Origin: an uncultured bacterium | GTDB lineage: Bacteria > Bacillota_I > Bacilli_A > RF39 > UBA660 | Reading direction: 5' to 3' | Length of the DNA: 64,000 nucleotides | Assembly (NCBI GenBank): GCA_905216155.1 | Contig: CAJMSU010000001.1 | Span: 8,412-72,411, forward strand | Part shown: positions 4,872 through 48,235 of the stretch, piece after piece | Numbering within the stretch: the first letter of the stretch is position 1 | Layout: each line of letters starts with the position of its first letter | Program-made: the position numbers and the translations under genes | Notes under the pieces: model-generated | The model's input: only the letters and a program-made list of their open reading frames with translations | Told to the model about the DNA's origin: nothing | Databases searched by the model: none

Positions 4872-5507
4872 TTATAAATTGCTTTTTAATTTTTGTAATA
4901 TTTTGGTTTCTTTTCTTGATACTTGTACTTGACTTATTCCTAGGTGCTTACTAGTTTCTTTTTGAGTTAATTCATTAAAATATCTATCTATTATTAATTC
5001 TTTTTCTTCTTCTTTTAAATTCATTAATTCATTTTTTAAATCTAGAATATCTGGTCTTGTTGTTTTATCCTCTGTTTTTATGGAGTTATATAATTCATAA
5101 CTTTCATCGTCATAAGAATAATCTAGGCTTTTTACTTTTTCTGTTGCTAATTGGGCTTCTTTTATTTTTTCCTCTTCTATTTCTAAGAATTGTGATAATT
5201 CTTTAATAGTTGGTTCTTTTTTTAATCTTTGTCTCATTATATCTTTGGCTTTTTCTATACTTTTATTTAATTTAATTAATTCTCTACTTATTTTTATTGT
5301 ACTTGATTCTCTTATATACTTTTTTATTTCACCTATTATATAAAAATATGCATATGTTGAAAATTTTACATTTAGTTTCTTATCATAGTTTTTGTAGGCA
5401 TTTATAAGTCCAAGCATTCCTACTTGGTACATATCATCTTTATCAAAATTTGAATATTTTCTTATTATGCTATAAATTAAATTTTCGTATTGTAGTATTT
5501 CTTCCAT
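4872..5507 (-). CDS. sigF: Sporulation-type RNA polymerase sigma factor (SigF-like)
   Basis: 211 aa. Region 2 is FSTYAYFYIIGEIKKYIRES and region 4.2 is HLGISQVQVSRKETKIL (GISQVQVSR is typical of SigF/SigG). Sits between a STAS gene and the spoVA operon. Confidence 0.8.
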   Translation of the reverse strand: MEEILQYENLIYSIIRKYSNFDKDDMYQVGMLGLINAYKNYDKKLNVKFSTYAYFYIIGEIKKYIRESSTIKISRELIKLNKSIEKAKDIMRQRLKKEPTIKELSQFLEIEEEKIKEAQLATEKVKSLDYSYDDESYELYNSIKTEDKTTRPDILDLKNELMNLKEEEKELIIDRYFNELTQKETSKHLGISQVQVSRKETKILQKLKSNL

Positions 5508-5517
5508 TTTAAATCTC

Positions 5518-5856
5518 CTATATTTTTAAATATTTAAATGCATCTTGTTCTTCATTTACATAAAATAGTTTATCTTTTGATGTTCCAATTACTCTTTTTT
5601 GGAGTTTATTTACACCACACATTACTACTTGTCCACAACTTAAAAATATCTCAGTTAATATATTTTGAAATTTAGTAAATATATTTTGATCTATGTTATC
5701 TAAATTTTTAAAATTTAATACATAATAATGAATTCCTTGTTTATATAATAAATAATTTAATTCATCATAAAAAGTATTTATTGTACTACTATTTAAATTA
5801 CCTTCTAATCTTATAAAAATTATGCCTCTATTTACTTGGGTTGTAATTTCTAGCAT
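5518..5856 (-). CDS. spoIIAA: STAS-domain anti-anti-sigma-like protein (SpoIIAA-like) lacking the phosphorylatable Ser
   Basis: 112 aa. It aligns by eye over its length with B. subtilis SpoIIAA. The DSSG phospho-site is replaced by DQNI. It ends 10 nt upstream of sigF. Confidence 0.7.
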   Translation of the reverse strand: MLEITTQVNRGIIFIRLEGNLNSSTINTFYDELNYLLYKQGIHYYVLNFKNLDNIDQNIFTKFQNILTEIFLSCGQVVMCGVNKLQKRVIGTSKDKLFYVNEEQDAFKYLKI

Positions 5857-5908
5857 ATTTATTCACCTCTATAAAAATATAGAACATAATTAGTATTTTT
5901 TATACCTT

Positions 5909-5951
5909 TTCGACAAAACATGTCATTTATTTCATTCGATTTTATTCGACA
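5909..5951 (-). promoter_or_regulatory. Two perfect Spo0A boxes (TGTCGAA) upstream of the spoIIAA-like/sigF operon
   Basis: The reverse complement of 5909..5915 and of 5945..5951 is TGTCGAA (contexts gTTTTGTCGAAAAgg and tTTTGTCGAAtaa). A CGAA half-site lies at 5935..5941. The boxes sit about 55 and 90 nt upstream of the start codon. Confidence 0.6.
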
Positions 5952-5975
5952 AAAAAAGACTAGCTGTAGTCTTTT
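5951..5975 (-). terminator. Intrinsic terminator of the 79-aa gene
   Basis: 9-bp stem aaaagacta (5954..5962) / tagtctttt (5967..5975) with a 4-nt loop. A U-run follows in the minus-strand transcript. Confidence 0.75.
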
Positions 5976-6199
5976 AATTTAATAAGTTCTTCTTTATTTA
6001 ATCCAGTTGATTTTTTTATTATTTCTATATCTATATTGTTTTCTAGTAAGTGTTTTGCGATTTCTAGAGATTTTTCCTTTTCTCCTGCTTCTTTTCCTAT
6101 TTCATAATATTCTTCTTGAAGAGCCATTTCTTTATCATAACTTTCTCCAAAATATTCATCATCCATTACTTTTTCTACTTCTTCCATATACTCTTCCAT
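5960..6199 (-). CDS. Small acidic protein (79 aa) equivalent to the C-terminal tail of Rpn/YhgA-like (transposase_31) nucleases; possible orphan RpnS-like protein
   Basis: Strong RBS (aggaggtataaatataATG). The C-terminus KSLEIAKHLLENNIDIEIIKKSTGLNKEELIKLK resembles the conserved tail of Firmicute Rpn-family proteins. Degenerate paralogous copies lie at 46990..47228 and 57815..57840. Confidence 0.55.
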   Translation of the reverse strand: MEEYMEEVEKVMDDEYFGESYDKEMALQEEYYEIGKEAGEKEKSLEIAKHLLENNIDIEIIKKSTGLNKEELIKLKDYS

Positions 6200-6209
6200 T
6201 ATATTTATA

Positions 6210-6288
6210 CCTCCTATTACAAAAAAATATATTGAATAAATCTATCCAATATATTATTATCTTTTTGTTTTTGTTTTCCTTTTAATTT
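6210..6288 (-). repeat. Conserved ~80-nt hairpin-terminator/RBS block, copy 1 of 3
   Basis: Near-identical to 47529..47608 and similar to 57851..57931. The stem is 6226..6236 / 6245..6255, followed by a U7 run on the minus strand. Confidence 0.85.
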
Positions 6289-7221
6289 TTATTGTTTTTT
6301 GAATAACTTTTTGATATTTTCCTTTGGCATTAACATTTTTGATGTTTTATCTACTTTGAATGTAAACTTTTTATTATTAGATTTATATTCTTCACCATCT
6401 ATACACCAAGAAGTCTTTGGTTTGTTTAGAAATTCTATTTCTAGATTATTAGTTTGATAATATGTAATACCTGGTACTTTCTTTAAATCTCTTGTTGTTG
6501 CTTGAACCATCATTTTTAGTATTTCTCTTTTTGTTCTTGGGTTTGCTAAGGCAACCTCAAACATATTATCATCTAACTTTATATCATAATATATATCATC
6601 AACACCTGCTACTCGTGATGAATTTGTTATAAATATAAATGAAAACTTTCCTTCATAATTTTTACCATCTATTTTATATTTTATATTATACATATTGGTT
6701 TTATTTTTTAATTGTTTTAATCCATACATTATATATGCTAGTTTTCCATATTTTTTCTTTAGGGATCTTGGCGTATTATATGCCATATCTATAAAATCTC
6801 CAAGACATGCAACATAAACAAATGGGGTATTATTTATATAACAAACATCTATATTTTTTTCTACTCCGGTTAGTAATAACTCTAGATTTTTTTGGTAATT
6901 TTTGGTATATCCAAACATATTGGCTACGTCATTAGTTGTTCCCATAGGAAGATTGGCAAGAACTAAATGATTTTCTCTTAACATATTTCCTGTTACAACT
7001 TCATTTAAAGTACCATCTCCACCGGCACTTATTACTAAGTCTACATCATCATCTAATTCTTTAACAATTTTAGTTGCATCTTTTTTTTGCTTTGTATATT
7101 TAATCTCTGCATCATATCCATGTTTTCTTAAAATGTCATAGAAATCTTTTTTATTATCTAATTTTTTTACTTTTCCACTTTCGGGGTTCATTATGATTAT
7201 ACATTTTTTCAAAATAATCAA
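6289..7221 (-). CDS. dagK: Diacylglycerol kinase family lipid kinase (DagK/YegS-like)
   Basis: 310 aa with the GGDGTLNEV catalytic-domain motif and the NPESGK N-terminal motif. Confidence 0.85.
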   Translation of the reverse strand: MIILKKCIIIMNPESGKVKKLDNKKDFYDILRKHGYDAEIKYTKQKKDATKIVKELDDDVDLVISAGGDGTLNEVVTGNMLRENHLVLANLPMGTTNDVANMFGYTKNYQKNLELLLTGVEKNIDVCYINNTPFVYVACLGDFIDMAYNTPRSLKKKYGKLAYIMYGLKQLKNKTNMYNIKYKIDGKNYEGKFSFIFITNSSRVAGVDDIYYDIKLDDNMFEVALANPRTKREILKMMVQATTRDLKKVPGITYYQTNNLEIEFLNKPKTSWCIDGEEYKSNNKKFTFKVDKTSKMLMPKENIKKLFKKQ

Positions 7222-7236
7222 CTCCTTAATAGCTAT

Positions 7237-7327
7237 ATTATAACATTATTCTGAGAAAATTATAGAACATTATTCTGAAAAATGTATGAAATTATTAAAA
7301 TATCTTTATTTTATTAAACTTATTCTG
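7237..7327 (-). promoter_or_regulatory. Candidate dagK promoter (-10 TATAAT) with phased direct repeats
   Basis: TATAAT is the reverse complement of 7237..7242. TCAGAATAATGTT occurs twice (reverse complement of 7242..7254 and of 7266..7278, period 24 nt). A variant CAGAATAAGTT lies at 7317..7327. There is no good -35 element. Confidence 0.35.
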
Positions 7328-7425
7328 TTATTTTATTTATTAATTAACATATGGTTTATATAATATGAACTAAATAAACGATATATCATTTTAGTTAACA
7401 AAATAAAATATTGATTTTCATTATC

Positions 7426-7460
7426 AAAAGAATGGATTAAATTATACTGTTTAATCCATT
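7426..7460 (-). terminator. Intrinsic terminator of the GH25 gene
   Basis: Perfect 10-bp stem aatggattaa (7431..7440) / ttaatccatt (7451..7460) overlapping the stop codon. CUUUUG follows on the minus strand. Confidence 0.65.
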
Positions 7461-46941: not shown

Positions 46942-46946
46942 AAATA

Positions 46947-46980
46947 AAGAAGTTGAATTTACTACAACTTCTTATTTTTT
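46947..46980 (+). terminator. Intrinsic terminator after the TetR gene
   Basis: 9-bp stem aagaagttg (46947..46955) / caacttctt (46965..46973) with a 9-nt loop, then aTTTTTT. Confidence 0.75.
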
Positions 46981-46989
46981 TATTTTATT

Positions 46990-47524
46990 TAACTCTTCTT
47001 TATTTAATCCAGTTGATTTTCTATTATTTCTATATCAATATTATTTTCTAGTAAGTGCTTCGCAATTTTAATTTTTTCTTTTTTTATTCCCTATTTTACA
47101 CCTTTCTTAATTTCTGCTTCTTTTCCTATTTCATAATATTCTTCTTGAAGAGCCATTTCTTTATCATAACTTTCTCCAAAATATTCATCATCCATTACTT
47201 TTTCTACTTCTTCCATATACTCTTCCATTATATTTATACCTCCTCCTAACTCTTTAGAAGTTACTATATCTTTTTCTTTATTTAGACTTTCTTTGGTTAA
47301 TTTTATTTTACTTCAAAGTTCTTCATATGTTATATCTAGACAATATGATAAGAACTTGGCACCATACTTTATTCTATTATCATTATAAAACATTGTTTTG
47401 AACATAGTATCTGACATGATAGATGGTTTTTCTCCTTCTTTTATTTTTGTTATTTCTCACTGTCTTTTAATGATACTTCTAAATCATATAATAACTTATA
47501 ATTATCATTTTTAATATTTAACAT
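46990..47524 (-). pseudogene. Decayed Rpn-family locus: 24-codon leader ORF, Rpn N-terminal stub with an in-frame TGA, and a disrupted copy of the 79-aa tail gene
   Basis: Leader ORF at 47450..47524. Stub MSDTMFKTMFYNDNRIKYGAKFLSYCLDITYEEL* at 47313..47417. Tail-gene copy with ATG at 47228 and a premature TAG at 47091, followed by a frameshifted C-terminus. DNA is near-identical to 6080..6215. Confidence 0.6.
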
Positions 47525-47528
47525 ATAA

Positions 47529-47608
47529 CCTCCTATTACAAAAAAATATATTGAATAAATCTATCCAATATATTATTATCTTTTTGTTTAGGTTTTCCTT
47601 TTAATTTT
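47529..47608 (-). repeat. Conserved hairpin-terminator/RBS block, copy 2 of 3
   Basis: Near-identical to 6210..6288. The stem is 47545..47555 / 47564..47574. Confidence 0.85.
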
Positions 47609-48235
47609 TTATTTTAATTCAACAAGTGATAGTTTTTTTCCCTTATGCATAAATATTAAAGTTGCTTCTTTTTGATAATCAGAGAAATCATCACTTGTAT
47701 ATGTCCAAGATACTTTTACTTCGTATGCTTCTTTATCTGTTGTGTCACTATATGTAAATGTTGTATTATCAATACTATCTATTGTGATTTTATCTACTGT
47801 AGGCAACTTTTGTTTTCTTTGATTATAAATATTGCTTTCTACATATTTATAGTATGTATCTTCTGCATTTTTTAAGAAATTATCCAATACAGTAGAATAC
47901 ACAAAATCAGTTCCACCTACATCTGTTTTTGCAGTTTTATCGTTTAATGAATAAAAATCGTAAATAAACATTTCTGATATTTTTTTTGCATACTCTTTTT
48001 CATCTACTGGATCTTTTTTTAGTATTTTTTCTAATTCATAAAACATCTTTTTATATTCAGCACTTTTGGTATCTTTTAATTTATATCCATATCCTTTTAT
48101 TTCATGAAGTACTTTTACTTCTTTTACATTATCTTTATTAAAGAATACTTTATAACTAATAAATCCTACTATTGATAGAACTATTAAAACTAATAAAGTT
48201 ATTAATATTCTTTTTGGCTTTTTCTTTAAACGCAT
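47609..48235 (-). CDS. Hypothetical N-terminally anchored extracytoplasmic protein (208 aa), co-transcribed with ltaS
   Basis: Single TM helix (ILITLLVLIVLSIVGFISY). It starts 3 nt after the ltaS stop. Confidence 0.6.
   Translation of the reverse strand: MRLKKKPKRILITLLVLIVLSIVGFISYKVFFNKDNVKEVKVLHEIKGYGYKLKDTKSAEYKKMFYELEKILKKDPVDEKEYAKKISEMFIYDFYSLNDKTAKTDVGGTDFVYSTVLDNFLKNAEDTYYKYVESNIYNQRKQKLPTVDKITIDSIDNTTFTYSDTTDKEAYEVKVSWTYTSDDFSDYQKEATLIFMHKGKKLSLVELK

What the first reader, a model, noticed from the sequence alone, without database searches (positions are those of the whole stretch)
6210..6288. Three-copy ~80-nt block carrying a structured hairpin terminator, with a compensatory change
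- **Copies.** The block occurs at 6210..6288, 47529..47608 (near-identical) and 57851..57931 (roughly 85% identical by eye).
- **Placement.** It is always on the minus strand. Homology always begins at the stop codon of the upstream gene (dagK, the 208-aa gene, the 218-aa gene).
- **Core structure.** The core is an 11-bp hairpin AAUAUAUUGGA-N8-UUCAAUAUAUU followed by U7.
- **Strand evidence.** In copies 1-2 one stem pair is G.U in the minus-strand RNA. It would be an A.C mismatch on the other strand.
- **Covariation.** In copy 3 that G is an A, giving A-U. This argues for selection on RNA structure.
- **Interpretation.** A shared terminator module at unrelated 3' ends suggests a mobile or recombining cassette.
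Basis: seen in the sequence. Interest (0 to 1): 0.6.

Follow-up and report, generated by a model that had tools for sequence, protein, structure and literature searches.

The report
Terminator leader of decayed Rpn genes
The three-copy 80-base block is real, but it is not a free-standing mobile terminator: it is the upstream leader (an AT-rich terminator hairpin plus a ribosome-binding site) of a thrice-duplicated, now decaying Rpn nuclease defence gene, and it probably survives as the terminator of the host gene in front of it.

Summary
**Verdict: real, but ordinary.**

- **Copies.** The three minus-strand copies exist at 6209-6291, 47528-47611 and 57850-57934. They are the only ones in the 1.19-Mb genome.
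- **Hairpin.** Each copy folds into a 13-bp, almost pure A-U hairpin with a GAUU loop and a U-run (dG about -9.4 kcal/mol). This is typical of terminator-like hairpins in this 25%-GC genome.
- **"Compensatory change".** It is really two one-sided wobble changes, G.U to A-U and U-A to U.G. No pair changes on both sides.
- **Homology continues downstream.** The block ends in the Shine-Dalgarno sequence of an Rpn-family (RpnL/RpnS toxin-antitoxin type) gene.
  - Copy 2 is a pseudogene with the nuclease core deleted.
  - Copy 1 keeps only the 79-aa C-terminal ORF, after a deletion between two AGGAGGT motifs.
  - Copy 3 is a dead stub.
- **Distribution.** The block is absent from same-genus genomes, from 150 other genera of the family, and from the public genome, viral, plasmid and phage collections. 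It is present in other strains of the same species.
- **Constraint.** The hairpin core is 96% identical between copies 1 and 3, against about 64-80% for the flanks. It is invariant at locus 3 in nine strains.
- **Best reading (0.6).** It is an intrinsic terminator that travelled with the rpn unit and is now kept as the host genes' terminator.
- **Overlap and gaps.** Earlier notes of this scan had already identified the Rpn remnants.

The parts
6209..6291 (-). Block copy 1. Order: TAA of dagK, A-rich leader, A-tract 6253-6266, hairpin 6226-6255, T7 run 6221-6227, GTAAT, then AGGAGGT 6209-6215.
   Evidence: Sequence; alignment A1; fold dG -12.9, z -4.1; coordinates.
5960..6199 (-). 79-aa ORF equal to the C-terminal (RpnS-like, HTH_Rpn_C) part of an Rpn-family protein. 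It is translated from the RBS that closes the block.
   Evidence: TIGR01784 positions 196-272 of 273, E 3e-6. phrog_3300 positions 246-311 of 313, E 4e-11. 51% identity to residues 222-290 of a full-length paralog in same-genus genome G005. PF27070 HTH_Rpn_C is recorded on near-identical proteins.
5951..5973 (-). Second hairpin, AAGACTA-CAGC-TAGTCTT plus T-run, overlapping the stop of the 79-aa ORF. Its T-run and the following GTCGAA are the conserved host sequence that follows dagK directly in relatives.
   Evidence: Empty sites in G001-G004 read ...TTTAAATAACTTCTTTTTTTGTCGAA; coordinates.
47528..47611 (-). Block copy 2, after the 208-aa gene. Hairpin 47545-47574. AGGAGGT at 47528-47534 is the RBS of the full-length rpn reading frame.
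46973..47527 (-). Rpn pseudogene. It has the start codon and N-terminal stub (residues ~1-86, with one frameshift and an in-frame stop). Residues ~87-210, the nuclease core, are deleted. Then come the internal AGGAGGT plus ATG (47220-47244) and a C-terminal part with stops.
   Evidence: tblastn with a full-length paralog from G005: residues 24-86 at 68% identity (E 9e-28) and residues 211-279 at 46% (E 8e-21), both in the same frame. TIGR01784 match with 8 stops.
46948..46972 (.). Hairpin AGAAGTTG-N9-CAACTTCT between the rpn pseudogene and the convergent tetR gene. It is probably a two-way terminator and is not part of the repeat.
   Evidence: In G004 the 208-aa ortholog and tetR are only 33 nt apart, which is the empty site.
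57850..57934 (-). Block copy 3, after the 218-aa gene. Hairpin 57867-57896 carries the A-U and U.G variants. The RBS is degraded to AGTATGT.
   Evidence: Invariant in 9 strains.
57760..57849 (-). Dead remnant of the start of the RpnS-like ORF (ATGAAAGAGTATATGAATAGTTAG...). It is polymorphic between strains.
57659..57687 (-). Promoter-like site for gatCAB, TTGAAA-17-TATAAT with TGG immediately before the -10 hexamer (an extended -10). It lies downstream of block copy 3, so the block hairpin is the only terminator-like structure between the 218-aa gene and this site.
   Evidence: Read from the sequence. Invariant in 9 strains.

Best explanation
**What it is**
- The block is the immediate 5' leader of an Rpn-family (PD-(D/E)XK, YhgA-like; RpnL/RpnS toxin-antitoxin type) gene.
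- That gene was copied to three nearby sites in this species. Each copy sits directly behind the stop codon of a co-oriented host gene.
- The leader has four parts: an A-rich stretch, an A-U-rich hairpin with a U-run, five bases, and the gene's Shine-Dalgarno sequence AGGAGGT.

**How it most likely works**
- On the minus-strand RNA the hairpin and U-run act as a Rho-independent terminator. It ends the transcript of the upstream host gene, whose own terminator was displaced or destroyed by the insertion.
- Only read-through transcription reaches the rpn reading frame.

**What happened since**
- The rpn genes decayed. Copy 2 lost its nuclease core. A deletion between the two AGGAGGT motifs left only the small C-terminal ORF in copy 1. 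Copy 3 is a stub.
- The terminator core is kept by selection because the host genes now depend on it.

**Shown:** the anatomy, the linkage to rpn, the empty sites in relatives, the restriction to one species, and the excess conservation of the core.
**Inferred:** termination itself and the direction of events.
For: **Linkage to rpn**
- The block's AGGAGGT is followed in copy 2 by the true N-terminus of a full-length Rpn paralog. The C-terminal ORF follows in copies 1 and 2.

**Empty sites**
- In same-genus genomes G001-G004, dagK ends LFK* and runs straight into its own hairpin and the T-run/GTCGAA. In G000 that T-run/GTCGAA lies after the 79-aa ORF.
- All orthologs of the 208-aa gene end VELK* and are followed by unrelated species-specific terminators. 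G004 has tetR 33 nt away.

**Terminator likeness**
- Minus-strand fold z is about -4.
- In a crude genome-wide scan, 276 of 887 gene ends have a hairpin plus T-run. Median dG is -7.9 and median hairpin GC is 23%. The block hairpin scores -9.4 and -9.9.
- The wobble pairs work only on the minus strand.

**Constraint**
- Copy 1 vs copy 3: core 2/51 differences, against 25/122 to 38/128 in the flanks (Fisher p 0.005 to 1e-4).
- Across about 15 contigs of other strains the stem never varies. The loop (G to A), the U-run length (6-8) and the leader do vary.
- At locus 3 in nine strains there are 0 variable sites over about 90 nt (the core and about 30 nt beyond it). About 6 vary in the leader's first ~12 nt and about 10 in ~95 nt of the rpn remnant.
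- A gatC promoter-like site follows copy 3.
Against:
- The stem has a single G-C pair. The tool's standard terminator scan, which requires at least 3 G-C pairs, reports none here. Such hairpins terminate weakly in model organisms.
- The hairpin starts 37-39 nt after the stop. The median for this genome's terminator-like hairpins is about 1 nt.
- The wobble evidence is two transitions. About 1 in 4 such outcomes is expected by chance (my estimate).
- Some of the core's conservation could come from gene conversion between copies. Copies 1 and 2 are 100% identical over the core and the first ~135 nt of the ORF, which itself suggests conversion.
- At locus 3 the invariant stretch also covers about 24 nt past the U-run that have no proposed function.
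Confidence: 0.6

Rival explanations
1. **Neutral passenger.** The block is simply flanking DNA that was copied with the rpn gene and has no function of its own. Its similarity between copies reflects recent duplication and gene conversion, not selection.
For: - Copies 1 and 2 are identical across the block and about 135 nt of ORF, then fall to about 67-80%.
- Alleles in other strains are mosaics of the two copies.
- The block is absent outside this species.
Against: - Copy 3 is old enough for its ORF remnant to be 64-80% identical and its RBS destroyed. Its core is still 96% identical, and both changes keep pairing.
- At locus 3 the polymorphisms among nine strains avoid the core.
- Without the block hairpin, dagK and the 218-aa gene would have no terminator-like structure before the next promoter region.
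Confidence: 0.15
2. **Leader or attenuator of the rpn gene.** The hairpin and U-run sit 5 nt before the Shine-Dalgarno sequence. On this reading they exist mainly to throttle transcription into a toxic nuclease gene, not to serve the upstream host gene.
For: - The hairpin, U7, GUAAU and AGGAGGU form one contiguous unit, and in copy 2 they lead into the true start of the full-length frame.
- RpnL proteins are toxic when expressed without RpnS, and their expression is regulated (PMC10400941).
- No room is left for a promoter between the hairpin and the RBS (read from the sequence).
Against: - Four full-length paralogs in same-genus genome G005, and the full-length gene on contig C11 of this genome, have no such hairpin upstream.
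- The core stays conserved at copy 3, where there is nothing left to regulate.
- No alternative anti-terminator pairing is conserved among the three copies.
Confidence: 0.12
3. **DNA-level end of a mobile rpn unit.** The strand-specific hairpin would be a single-strand DNA structure or recognition site, as in IS200/IS605 ends or integron attC. It would define the left end and let the rpn unit insert behind stop codons.
For: - There is a shared, fairly sharp left end in three of three copies, within 0-3 nt of a stop codon.
- G.T wobble pairs are also tolerated in folded single-strand DNA (general knowledge).
- Copies 1 and 3 share the same deletion junction. That could mean the short form was copied after the deletion.
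Against: - Homology starts about 37 nt upstream of the hairpin, in an A-rich tract, not at the hairpin.
- There is no matching structure or inverted repeat at the right end, which coincides with the rpn stop codon.
- There is no target-site duplication relative to the empty sites.
- There are only three copies, clustered within 52 kb and at the same loci in all strains seen.
- Rpn genes in general show no defined ends and are thought not to transpose (PMC10400941).
Confidence: 0.06
4. **Autonomous miniature repeat.** On this reading the block is a MITE-, REP- or Correia-like element that carries a terminator and spreads on its own.
For: It is a repeated intergenic hairpin element placed after stop codons.
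Against: - It is never found without the rpn sequence downstream.
- There are three copies only.
- A covariance model finds none in 150 other genera of the family.
- Pattern scans of species-representative genomes and viral contigs find none, and the metagenome scan finds it only in two contigs of another strain of this species.
Confidence: 0.04

Closest known systems
Rho-independent (intrinsic) transcription terminators
   Same: A stem-loop directly followed by a U-run, co-oriented with and just downstream of a stop codon, with an upstream A-tract that can pair with the U-run. Its energy and composition match the other terminator-like hairpins of this genome.
   Different: The stem is almost pure A-U, with 1 G-C pair in 13. 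The hairpin starts about 37 nt after the stop rather than at it. Three homologous copies exist because it was duplicated with a gene.
Rpn (YhgA-like) RpnL/RpnS gene-within-a-gene toxin-antitoxin defence genes (Zhong et al., PNAS 2023, PMC10400941)
   Same: - The downstream sequence is an Rpn-family gene.
- The surviving 79-aa ORF starts at the position of an internal AGGAGG plus ATG that is conserved in full-length paralogs, as in RpnS.
- Strains differ by four-residue repeat units in the tail.
- Copies appear to arise by local duplication and recombination rather than transposition, as that paper describes.
   Different: That paper reports variable ends for rpn regions. Here three copies share one about 80-nt upstream leader with a terminator-like hairpin. 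The nuclease part is lost in all three.
Small intergenic repeats that can act as terminators (REP/BIME of enterobacteria, Correia elements of Neisseria, RUP/BOX of pneumococci). Compared from general knowledge, not tested here.
   Same: A repeated, hairpin-forming sequence sitting between genes, close to stop codons.
   Different: Those occur in tens to hundreds of copies, have inverted-repeat ends or a dedicated transposase, and stand alone. This block has three copies, no terminal repeats and no target duplication, and it is always attached to rpn sequence.
Strand-specific DNA hairpins at ends of IS200/IS605 elements and integron attC sites. Compared from general knowledge.
   Same: A hairpin whose imperfections make sense on one strand only.
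   Different: No transposase or integrase is present. There is no second end, and homology starts well upstream of the hairpin.

Membership tests
Intrinsic (Rho-independent) terminator | Stable stem-loop on the transcribed strand | tested here: met
   13-bp stem. dG is -9.4 and -9.9 for the hairpin alone. With the A/U tracts it is -12.9 to -16.5, z about -4. All 65 pair cells are paired in 5 sequences.
Intrinsic (Rho-independent) terminator | G+C-rich stem, especially at its base | tested here: not met
   There is one G-C pair in 13. The consensus scan, which requires at least 3 G-C pairs, finds nothing in 5000-8000. This is nevertheless the norm in this 25%-GC genome, where the median hairpin GC is 23%.
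Intrinsic (Rho-independent) terminator | Run of U directly after the stem | tested here: met
   T7 in all three copies, and 6-8 in other strains.
Intrinsic (Rho-independent) terminator | Transcript 3' ends at the U-run | not testable with these tools
Rpn-family gene unit (RpnL/RpnS) | C-terminal Rpn tail domain downstream of the block | tested here: met
   TIGR01784 positions 196-272 of 273, E 3e-6. RpnA model positions 251-289 of 292, E 0.005. phrog_3300 E 4e-11. PF27070 HTH_Rpn_C on near-identical proteins.
Rpn-family gene unit (RpnL/RpnS) | N-terminal PD-(D/E)XK nuclease domain | tested here: not met
   Only residues ~1-86 survive in copy 2, and residues ~87-210 are deleted. Copies 1 and 3 have none. 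Intact paralogs exist elsewhere: contig C11:50146-50937 of this genome (288 aa, 56.6 bits) and same-genus genome G005.
Rpn-family gene unit (RpnL/RpnS) | Internal translation start for the small C-terminal protein | tested here: inconclusive
   AGGAGG(A/T) lies 9-10 nt before the Met of MEEY/MKDY. It is conserved in full-length paralogs from G005 and in copies 1 and 2. It also encodes Leu-Gly-Gly, so use as a start site is not shown.
Miniature mobile repeat (MITE/REP-like) | Terminal inverted repeats and target-site duplication | tested here: not met
   The only inverted repeat is the hairpin itself. There is no duplication when copy 1 is compared with the empty sites of G001-G004.
Miniature mobile repeat (MITE/REP-like) | Many dispersed copies, including copies without the associated gene | tested here: not met
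   Three copies within 52 kb, each followed by rpn sequence. None was found in 150 other genera with model R1.
Structured RNA family with covariation support | Compensatory (two-sided) base-pair changes | tested here: not met
   0 pairs changed on both sides and 2 pairs changed on one side. No Rfam match.

The most novel reading that the evidence does not exclude
In this lineage rpn units would have a defined left end and be copied specifically into the gap between a host gene's stop codon and its terminator. Each unit would bring a replacement terminator with it. The hairpin, or the A-rich left end, would take part in a nuclease- or microhomology-driven copy mechanism. That would give a first handle on how rpn genes, which lack transposon ends, move.
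Probability: 0.07. Interest if true: 0.65.

Novelty: new member of a known kind. Interest (0 to 1): 0.25.

Why it matters
- **Main result.** An apparent "mobile terminator with covariation" turns out to be an ordinary AT-rich terminator that was duplicated as the leader of a known defence gene.
- **A small point of wider interest.** When a defence gene is inserted behind a host gene and later decays, its leader terminator can stay on as the host gene's terminator. Gene turnover can therefore leave regulatory parts behind.
- **A relevance to how rpn genes move.** The shared left end, together with junctions at A-rich microhomologies, fits the published view that rpn genes spread by local duplication and illegitimate recombination rather than by transposition.

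Tried and rejected
**Searches for further copies**
- blastn of the unit against 60 relatives gave only low-complexity noise for the block part. The best hit, G007:C11, lies inside a glycosyltransferase gene.
- Covariance model R1 was run over 150 other genera of the family. The four weak hits (E 0.003-0.1) are either ordinary terminators (one next to a tRNA gene) or show no hairpin-plus-T-run at all, and none has rpn nearby.
- The exact hairpin pattern gave 0 hits in species-representative genomes and 0 in viral contigs. In metagenome contigs it gave 2 contigs, both from another strain of this species.
- A flank-anchored gapped pattern, meant to find copies with a changed hairpin, gave 2 chance matches in Muribaculaceae and Alcanivoracaceae with no hairpin.
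- Plasmid and phage collections gave no match.

**Other checks**
- Rfam gave nothing at gathering thresholds and only noise at E up to 10.
- C17:22392-22479 of this genome was considered as a fourth copy and rejected. It is another A-U terminator with 72% similarity and no rpn sequence.
- The promoter-like match inside the block (TTAAAA-18-GATAAT) was rejected as evidence. 28 such sites were found in 3 kb against 27 expected.
- Full-length rpn paralogs in G005 and on contig C11 of this genome were checked for an upstream hairpin. None was found, so the hairpin is not a general rpn feature.

**Not possible**
- Exact-protein look-ups of the window's 79-aa, 218-aa and 114-aa products found nothing on record. 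The 102-aa GatC form did work.

Full report
**1. The observation**

- With stop codon and ribosome-binding site included they span 6209-6291, 47528-47611 and 57850-57934.
- blastn against the whole assembly (1.19 Mb, 31 contigs, about 25% G+C) finds these three and no other true copy. Copy 1 vs copy 2 is 97.6% over 82 nt (E 3e-34). Copy 2 vs copy 3 is 89% over 84 nt (E 1e-24).
- Each copy folds on the minus strand into AAUAUAUUGGAUA-GAUU-UAUUCAAUAUAUU followed by U's. The T-run is 7, and its first two T can pair.
- Against dinucleotide shuffles, z is -3.9 to -4.4 on the minus strand and -2.2 to -3.1 on the plus strand.
Both keep pairing on the minus strand only. On the plus strand every copy has one A.C mismatch.
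- Pair counting on five sequences gives 100% paired cells, 2 pairs changed on one side and 0 changed on both sides. "Compensatory change" therefore overstates it. Two transitions that both happen to preserve pairing are expected about one time in four (my estimate).

**2. The repeat is longer than 80 nt, and what it belongs to**

*The alignment*
- Aligning the three loci shows that homology continues downstream.
- After the U-run come GTAAT and AGGAGGT. In copy 1 a 79-aa ORF then follows (5960-6199).
- Copy 2 has 285 extra bases between that AGGAGGT and a second AGGAGGT, followed by the same ORF broken by stops.
- Copy 3 has the copy-1 junction, a degraded RBS (AGTATGT) and about 90 nt of dead ORF.

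*The family*
- The 79-aa product matches the last about 75 positions of the Rpn-family model TIGR01784 (positions 196-272 of 273, E 3e-6). It also matches RpnA (positions 251-289 of 292) and phrog_3300 "transposase" (positions 246-311 of 313, E 4e-11).
- Near-identical proteins in public data carry PF27070 HTH_Rpn_C.

*Comparison with intact paralogs*
- A same-genus genome, G005, holds at least four full-length paralogs.
- tblastn with one of them shows that the extra 285 nt of copy 2 encode residues 24-86 (68% identity, E 9e-28).
- The match then jumps, in the same frame, to residues 211-279 (46% identity, E 8e-21).
- The short ORF right after the block's RBS (MLNIKNDNYKLLYDLEVSLKDSEK) is the paralogs' N-terminus (MLKLRNYKYNSLYDFKVTKKD...).

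*Conclusions from this*
- The block's AGGAGGT is the RBS of the full-length gene.
- Copy 2 is a pseudogene without its nuclease core.
- Copy 1 is what remains after a deletion between the first AGGAGGT and an internal AGGAGGT.
- That internal motif encodes Leu-Gly-Gly and lies 9 nt before the Met of MEEY. It is conserved in the G005 paralogs.
- It corresponds to the position of the internal start of RpnS antitoxins described for E. coli (PMC10400941).
- Earlier notes of this scan reached the same reading of the gene remnants. I re-derived it independently before looking them up.

**3. Where the units sit**

*Locus 1 (dagK)*
- In G001-G004, dagK ends ...LFK* and runs directly into its own hairpin (GAGAAGTTATTTAAATAACTTCT) and TTTTTTTGTCGAA. 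The spoIIAA-like/sigma-factor operon follows.
- In G000, dagK ends ...LFKKQ*. The block and the 79-aa ORF follow. The conserved TTTTTTTGTCGAA reappears right after the ORF's stop, where it completes a new hairpin (AAGACTA-CAGC-TAGTCTT).
- The unit therefore lies between the host stop codon and the host terminator's T-run. No target-site duplication is visible.

*Locus 2 (208-aa gene)*
- All five orthologs end VELK* like G000 and are followed by unrelated, species-specific terminators.
- In G004 the convergent tetR gene is 33 nt away, against 667 nt in G000.

*Locus 3 (218-aa gene)*
- G005 has a DnaJ-domain gene between the 218-aa ortholog and gatC instead of the block.

*All three together*
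- The three copies lie within 52 kb of one contig. For three random points in 1.19 Mb this has a probability of about 0.006 (my calculation). That fits local duplication.

**4. Distribution**

- The block part finds nothing real in 60 relatives by blastn.
- It finds nothing in 150 other genera of the family with covariance model R1.
- It is absent from species-representative genomes and viral contigs by pattern.
- It is absent from the plasmid and phage collections.
- Rfam has no match.
- The full-length rpn gene of this genome (contig C11) and the G005 paralogs have no such hairpin upstream.
- The block is therefore a young feature of one species, not a general part of rpn genes.

**5. Other strains of the species**

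*Locus 1*
- Metagenome and assembly contigs that are 96-99% identical show the block at locus 1 in two arrangements.
- The first is dagK-block-ORF, as in G000 (L065, L071).
- The second is dagK, a terminator, a glycosyltransferase paralog, then block-ORF (L052, L062 on an 89.5-kb contig, L063, L064, L066-L068, L070).
- In the second arrangement the 12-mer AAAAAACAATAA occurs at the end of dagK and again at the end of the glycosyltransferase gene. That gene's stop lies 6 nt further inside the block.

*Locus 2*
- L072 has the G000 arrangement with 30 more bases of rpn retained.
- L053 (2x coverage) joins locus 2's left side to locus 1's right side. It is either a recombinant or an assembly chimera.

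*Variation within the block and the ORF*
- Across all these contigs the stem is invariant.
- The loop varies (GATT to AATT in three contigs), the U-run is 6-8, and the A-rich leader has indels.
- The ORF tails differ by four-residue units (EAG-[IKKG]-EKEK...), as described for RpnS.

**6. Evidence that the core is constrained**

- Copy 1 vs copy 3: the core (A-tract, hairpin, U-run, GTAAT) has 2/51 differences. The leader has 4/22, the RBS with its spacer 2/16, and the first 90 nt of the ORF 32/90.
- Fisher's test gives p = 1e-4. With the more conservative BLAST-based flank count (25/122) it gives p = 0.005.
- At locus 3 in nine strains there is no variable site from AAAAAC through the hairpin to the old ATG (about 90 nt).
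- In the same nine strains, about 6 sites vary in the first ~12 nt of the leader and about 10 in the ~95 nt of rpn remnant.
- Copies 1 and 2 are identical through the core and the first about 135 nt of the ORF, then drop to about 67-80%. That points to gene conversion between them and is a caveat for the constraint argument.

**7. Is it a plausible terminator here?**

- I scanned 887 long-ORF ends in a crude way. 276 have a hairpin (dG of -5 or lower) followed by a T-run within 90 nt.
- Their median dG is -7.9, their median G+C is 23%, and their median start is 1 nt after the stop.
- The block hairpin (-9.4 and -9.9) is somewhat stronger than the median, but it starts later, at 37-39 nt.
- The tool's consensus scan misses it because it requires three G-C pairs.
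- Downstream of copy 3 lies an invariant promoter-like site for gatCAB, TTGAAA-17-TATAAT with a TG two bases before the -10 hexamer.
- In both places a terminator between the upstream gene and the next promoter makes sense.

**8. Conclusion**

The block is the leader of a triplicated, decaying Rpn-family gene, not an independent cassette.
- Most likely (0.6) it is an intrinsic terminator that came with the unit and is now kept as the terminator of dagK, the 208-aa gene and the 218-aa gene.
- The rival readings and their weights:
  - neutral passenger homogenised by gene conversion (0.15);
  - attenuator for the toxic gene (0.12);
  - DNA-level end of a mobile rpn unit (0.06);
  - autonomous miniature repeat (0.04).
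- It is a new member of known kinds and of modest interest.

Noticed in passing
L062:1490-2500, also L052, L063, L064, L066-L068, L070; corresponds to window ~6289: Many strains carry an extra ~1.07-kb segment between dagK and the block. It consists of a terminator plus a family-2 glycosyltransferase paralog, 91% identical to G000 C1:22545-23496. The 12-mer AAAAAACAATAA stands at both ends of the segment. Its last four codons are replaced by block sequence, so it looks like microhomology-mediated insertion or deletion.
   Followed up: partly
L053:1389-2060 vs window 46945-47611 and 5950-6199: A 2x-coverage metagenome contig joins the 208-aa gene, the block and the rpn pseudogene to the spoIIAA-like gene. 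That would delete about 41 kb. It is either a real recombinant between copies 1 and 2 or an assembly chimera. L072 shows the normal locus-2 arrangement.
   Followed up: partly
window 5960-6199 and its alleles in L053, L068, L070, L071: The small Rpn-tail ORF varies between strains by four-residue units: EAG-EKEK, EAG-IKKG-EKEK and EAG-IKEG-VKQG-IKKE. This is the pattern reported for RpnS antitoxins. Some alleles carry TAG or TGA stops that gene callers read through with other codes.
   Followed up: partly
L026:2418-3370 (G005): In the nearest sampled species the same dagK-to-spoIIAA gap holds an unrelated gene for a membrane protein of about 268 aa. This intergenic site has been hit by insertions repeatedly.
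   Followed up: no
window 57659-57687 (-): A promoter-like site for gatCAB, TTGAAA-17-TATAAT with a TG two bases before the -10 hexamer (an extended -10). It is invariant in nine strains.
   Followed up: no
G000 C11:50146-50937 (-), outside the window: This is the one intact full-length Rpn-family gene of the genome (288 aa, 56.6 bits to TIGR01784), near a contig end. It has no block upstream. A partial copy lies at C12:341-709.
   Followed up: partly
window 6289-6300 (-): DagK of this species ends LFKKQ*, whereas all five same-genus orthologs end LFK*. The extra two codons and the stop lie in the sequence shared with the glycosyltransferase-block junction.
   Followed up: partly
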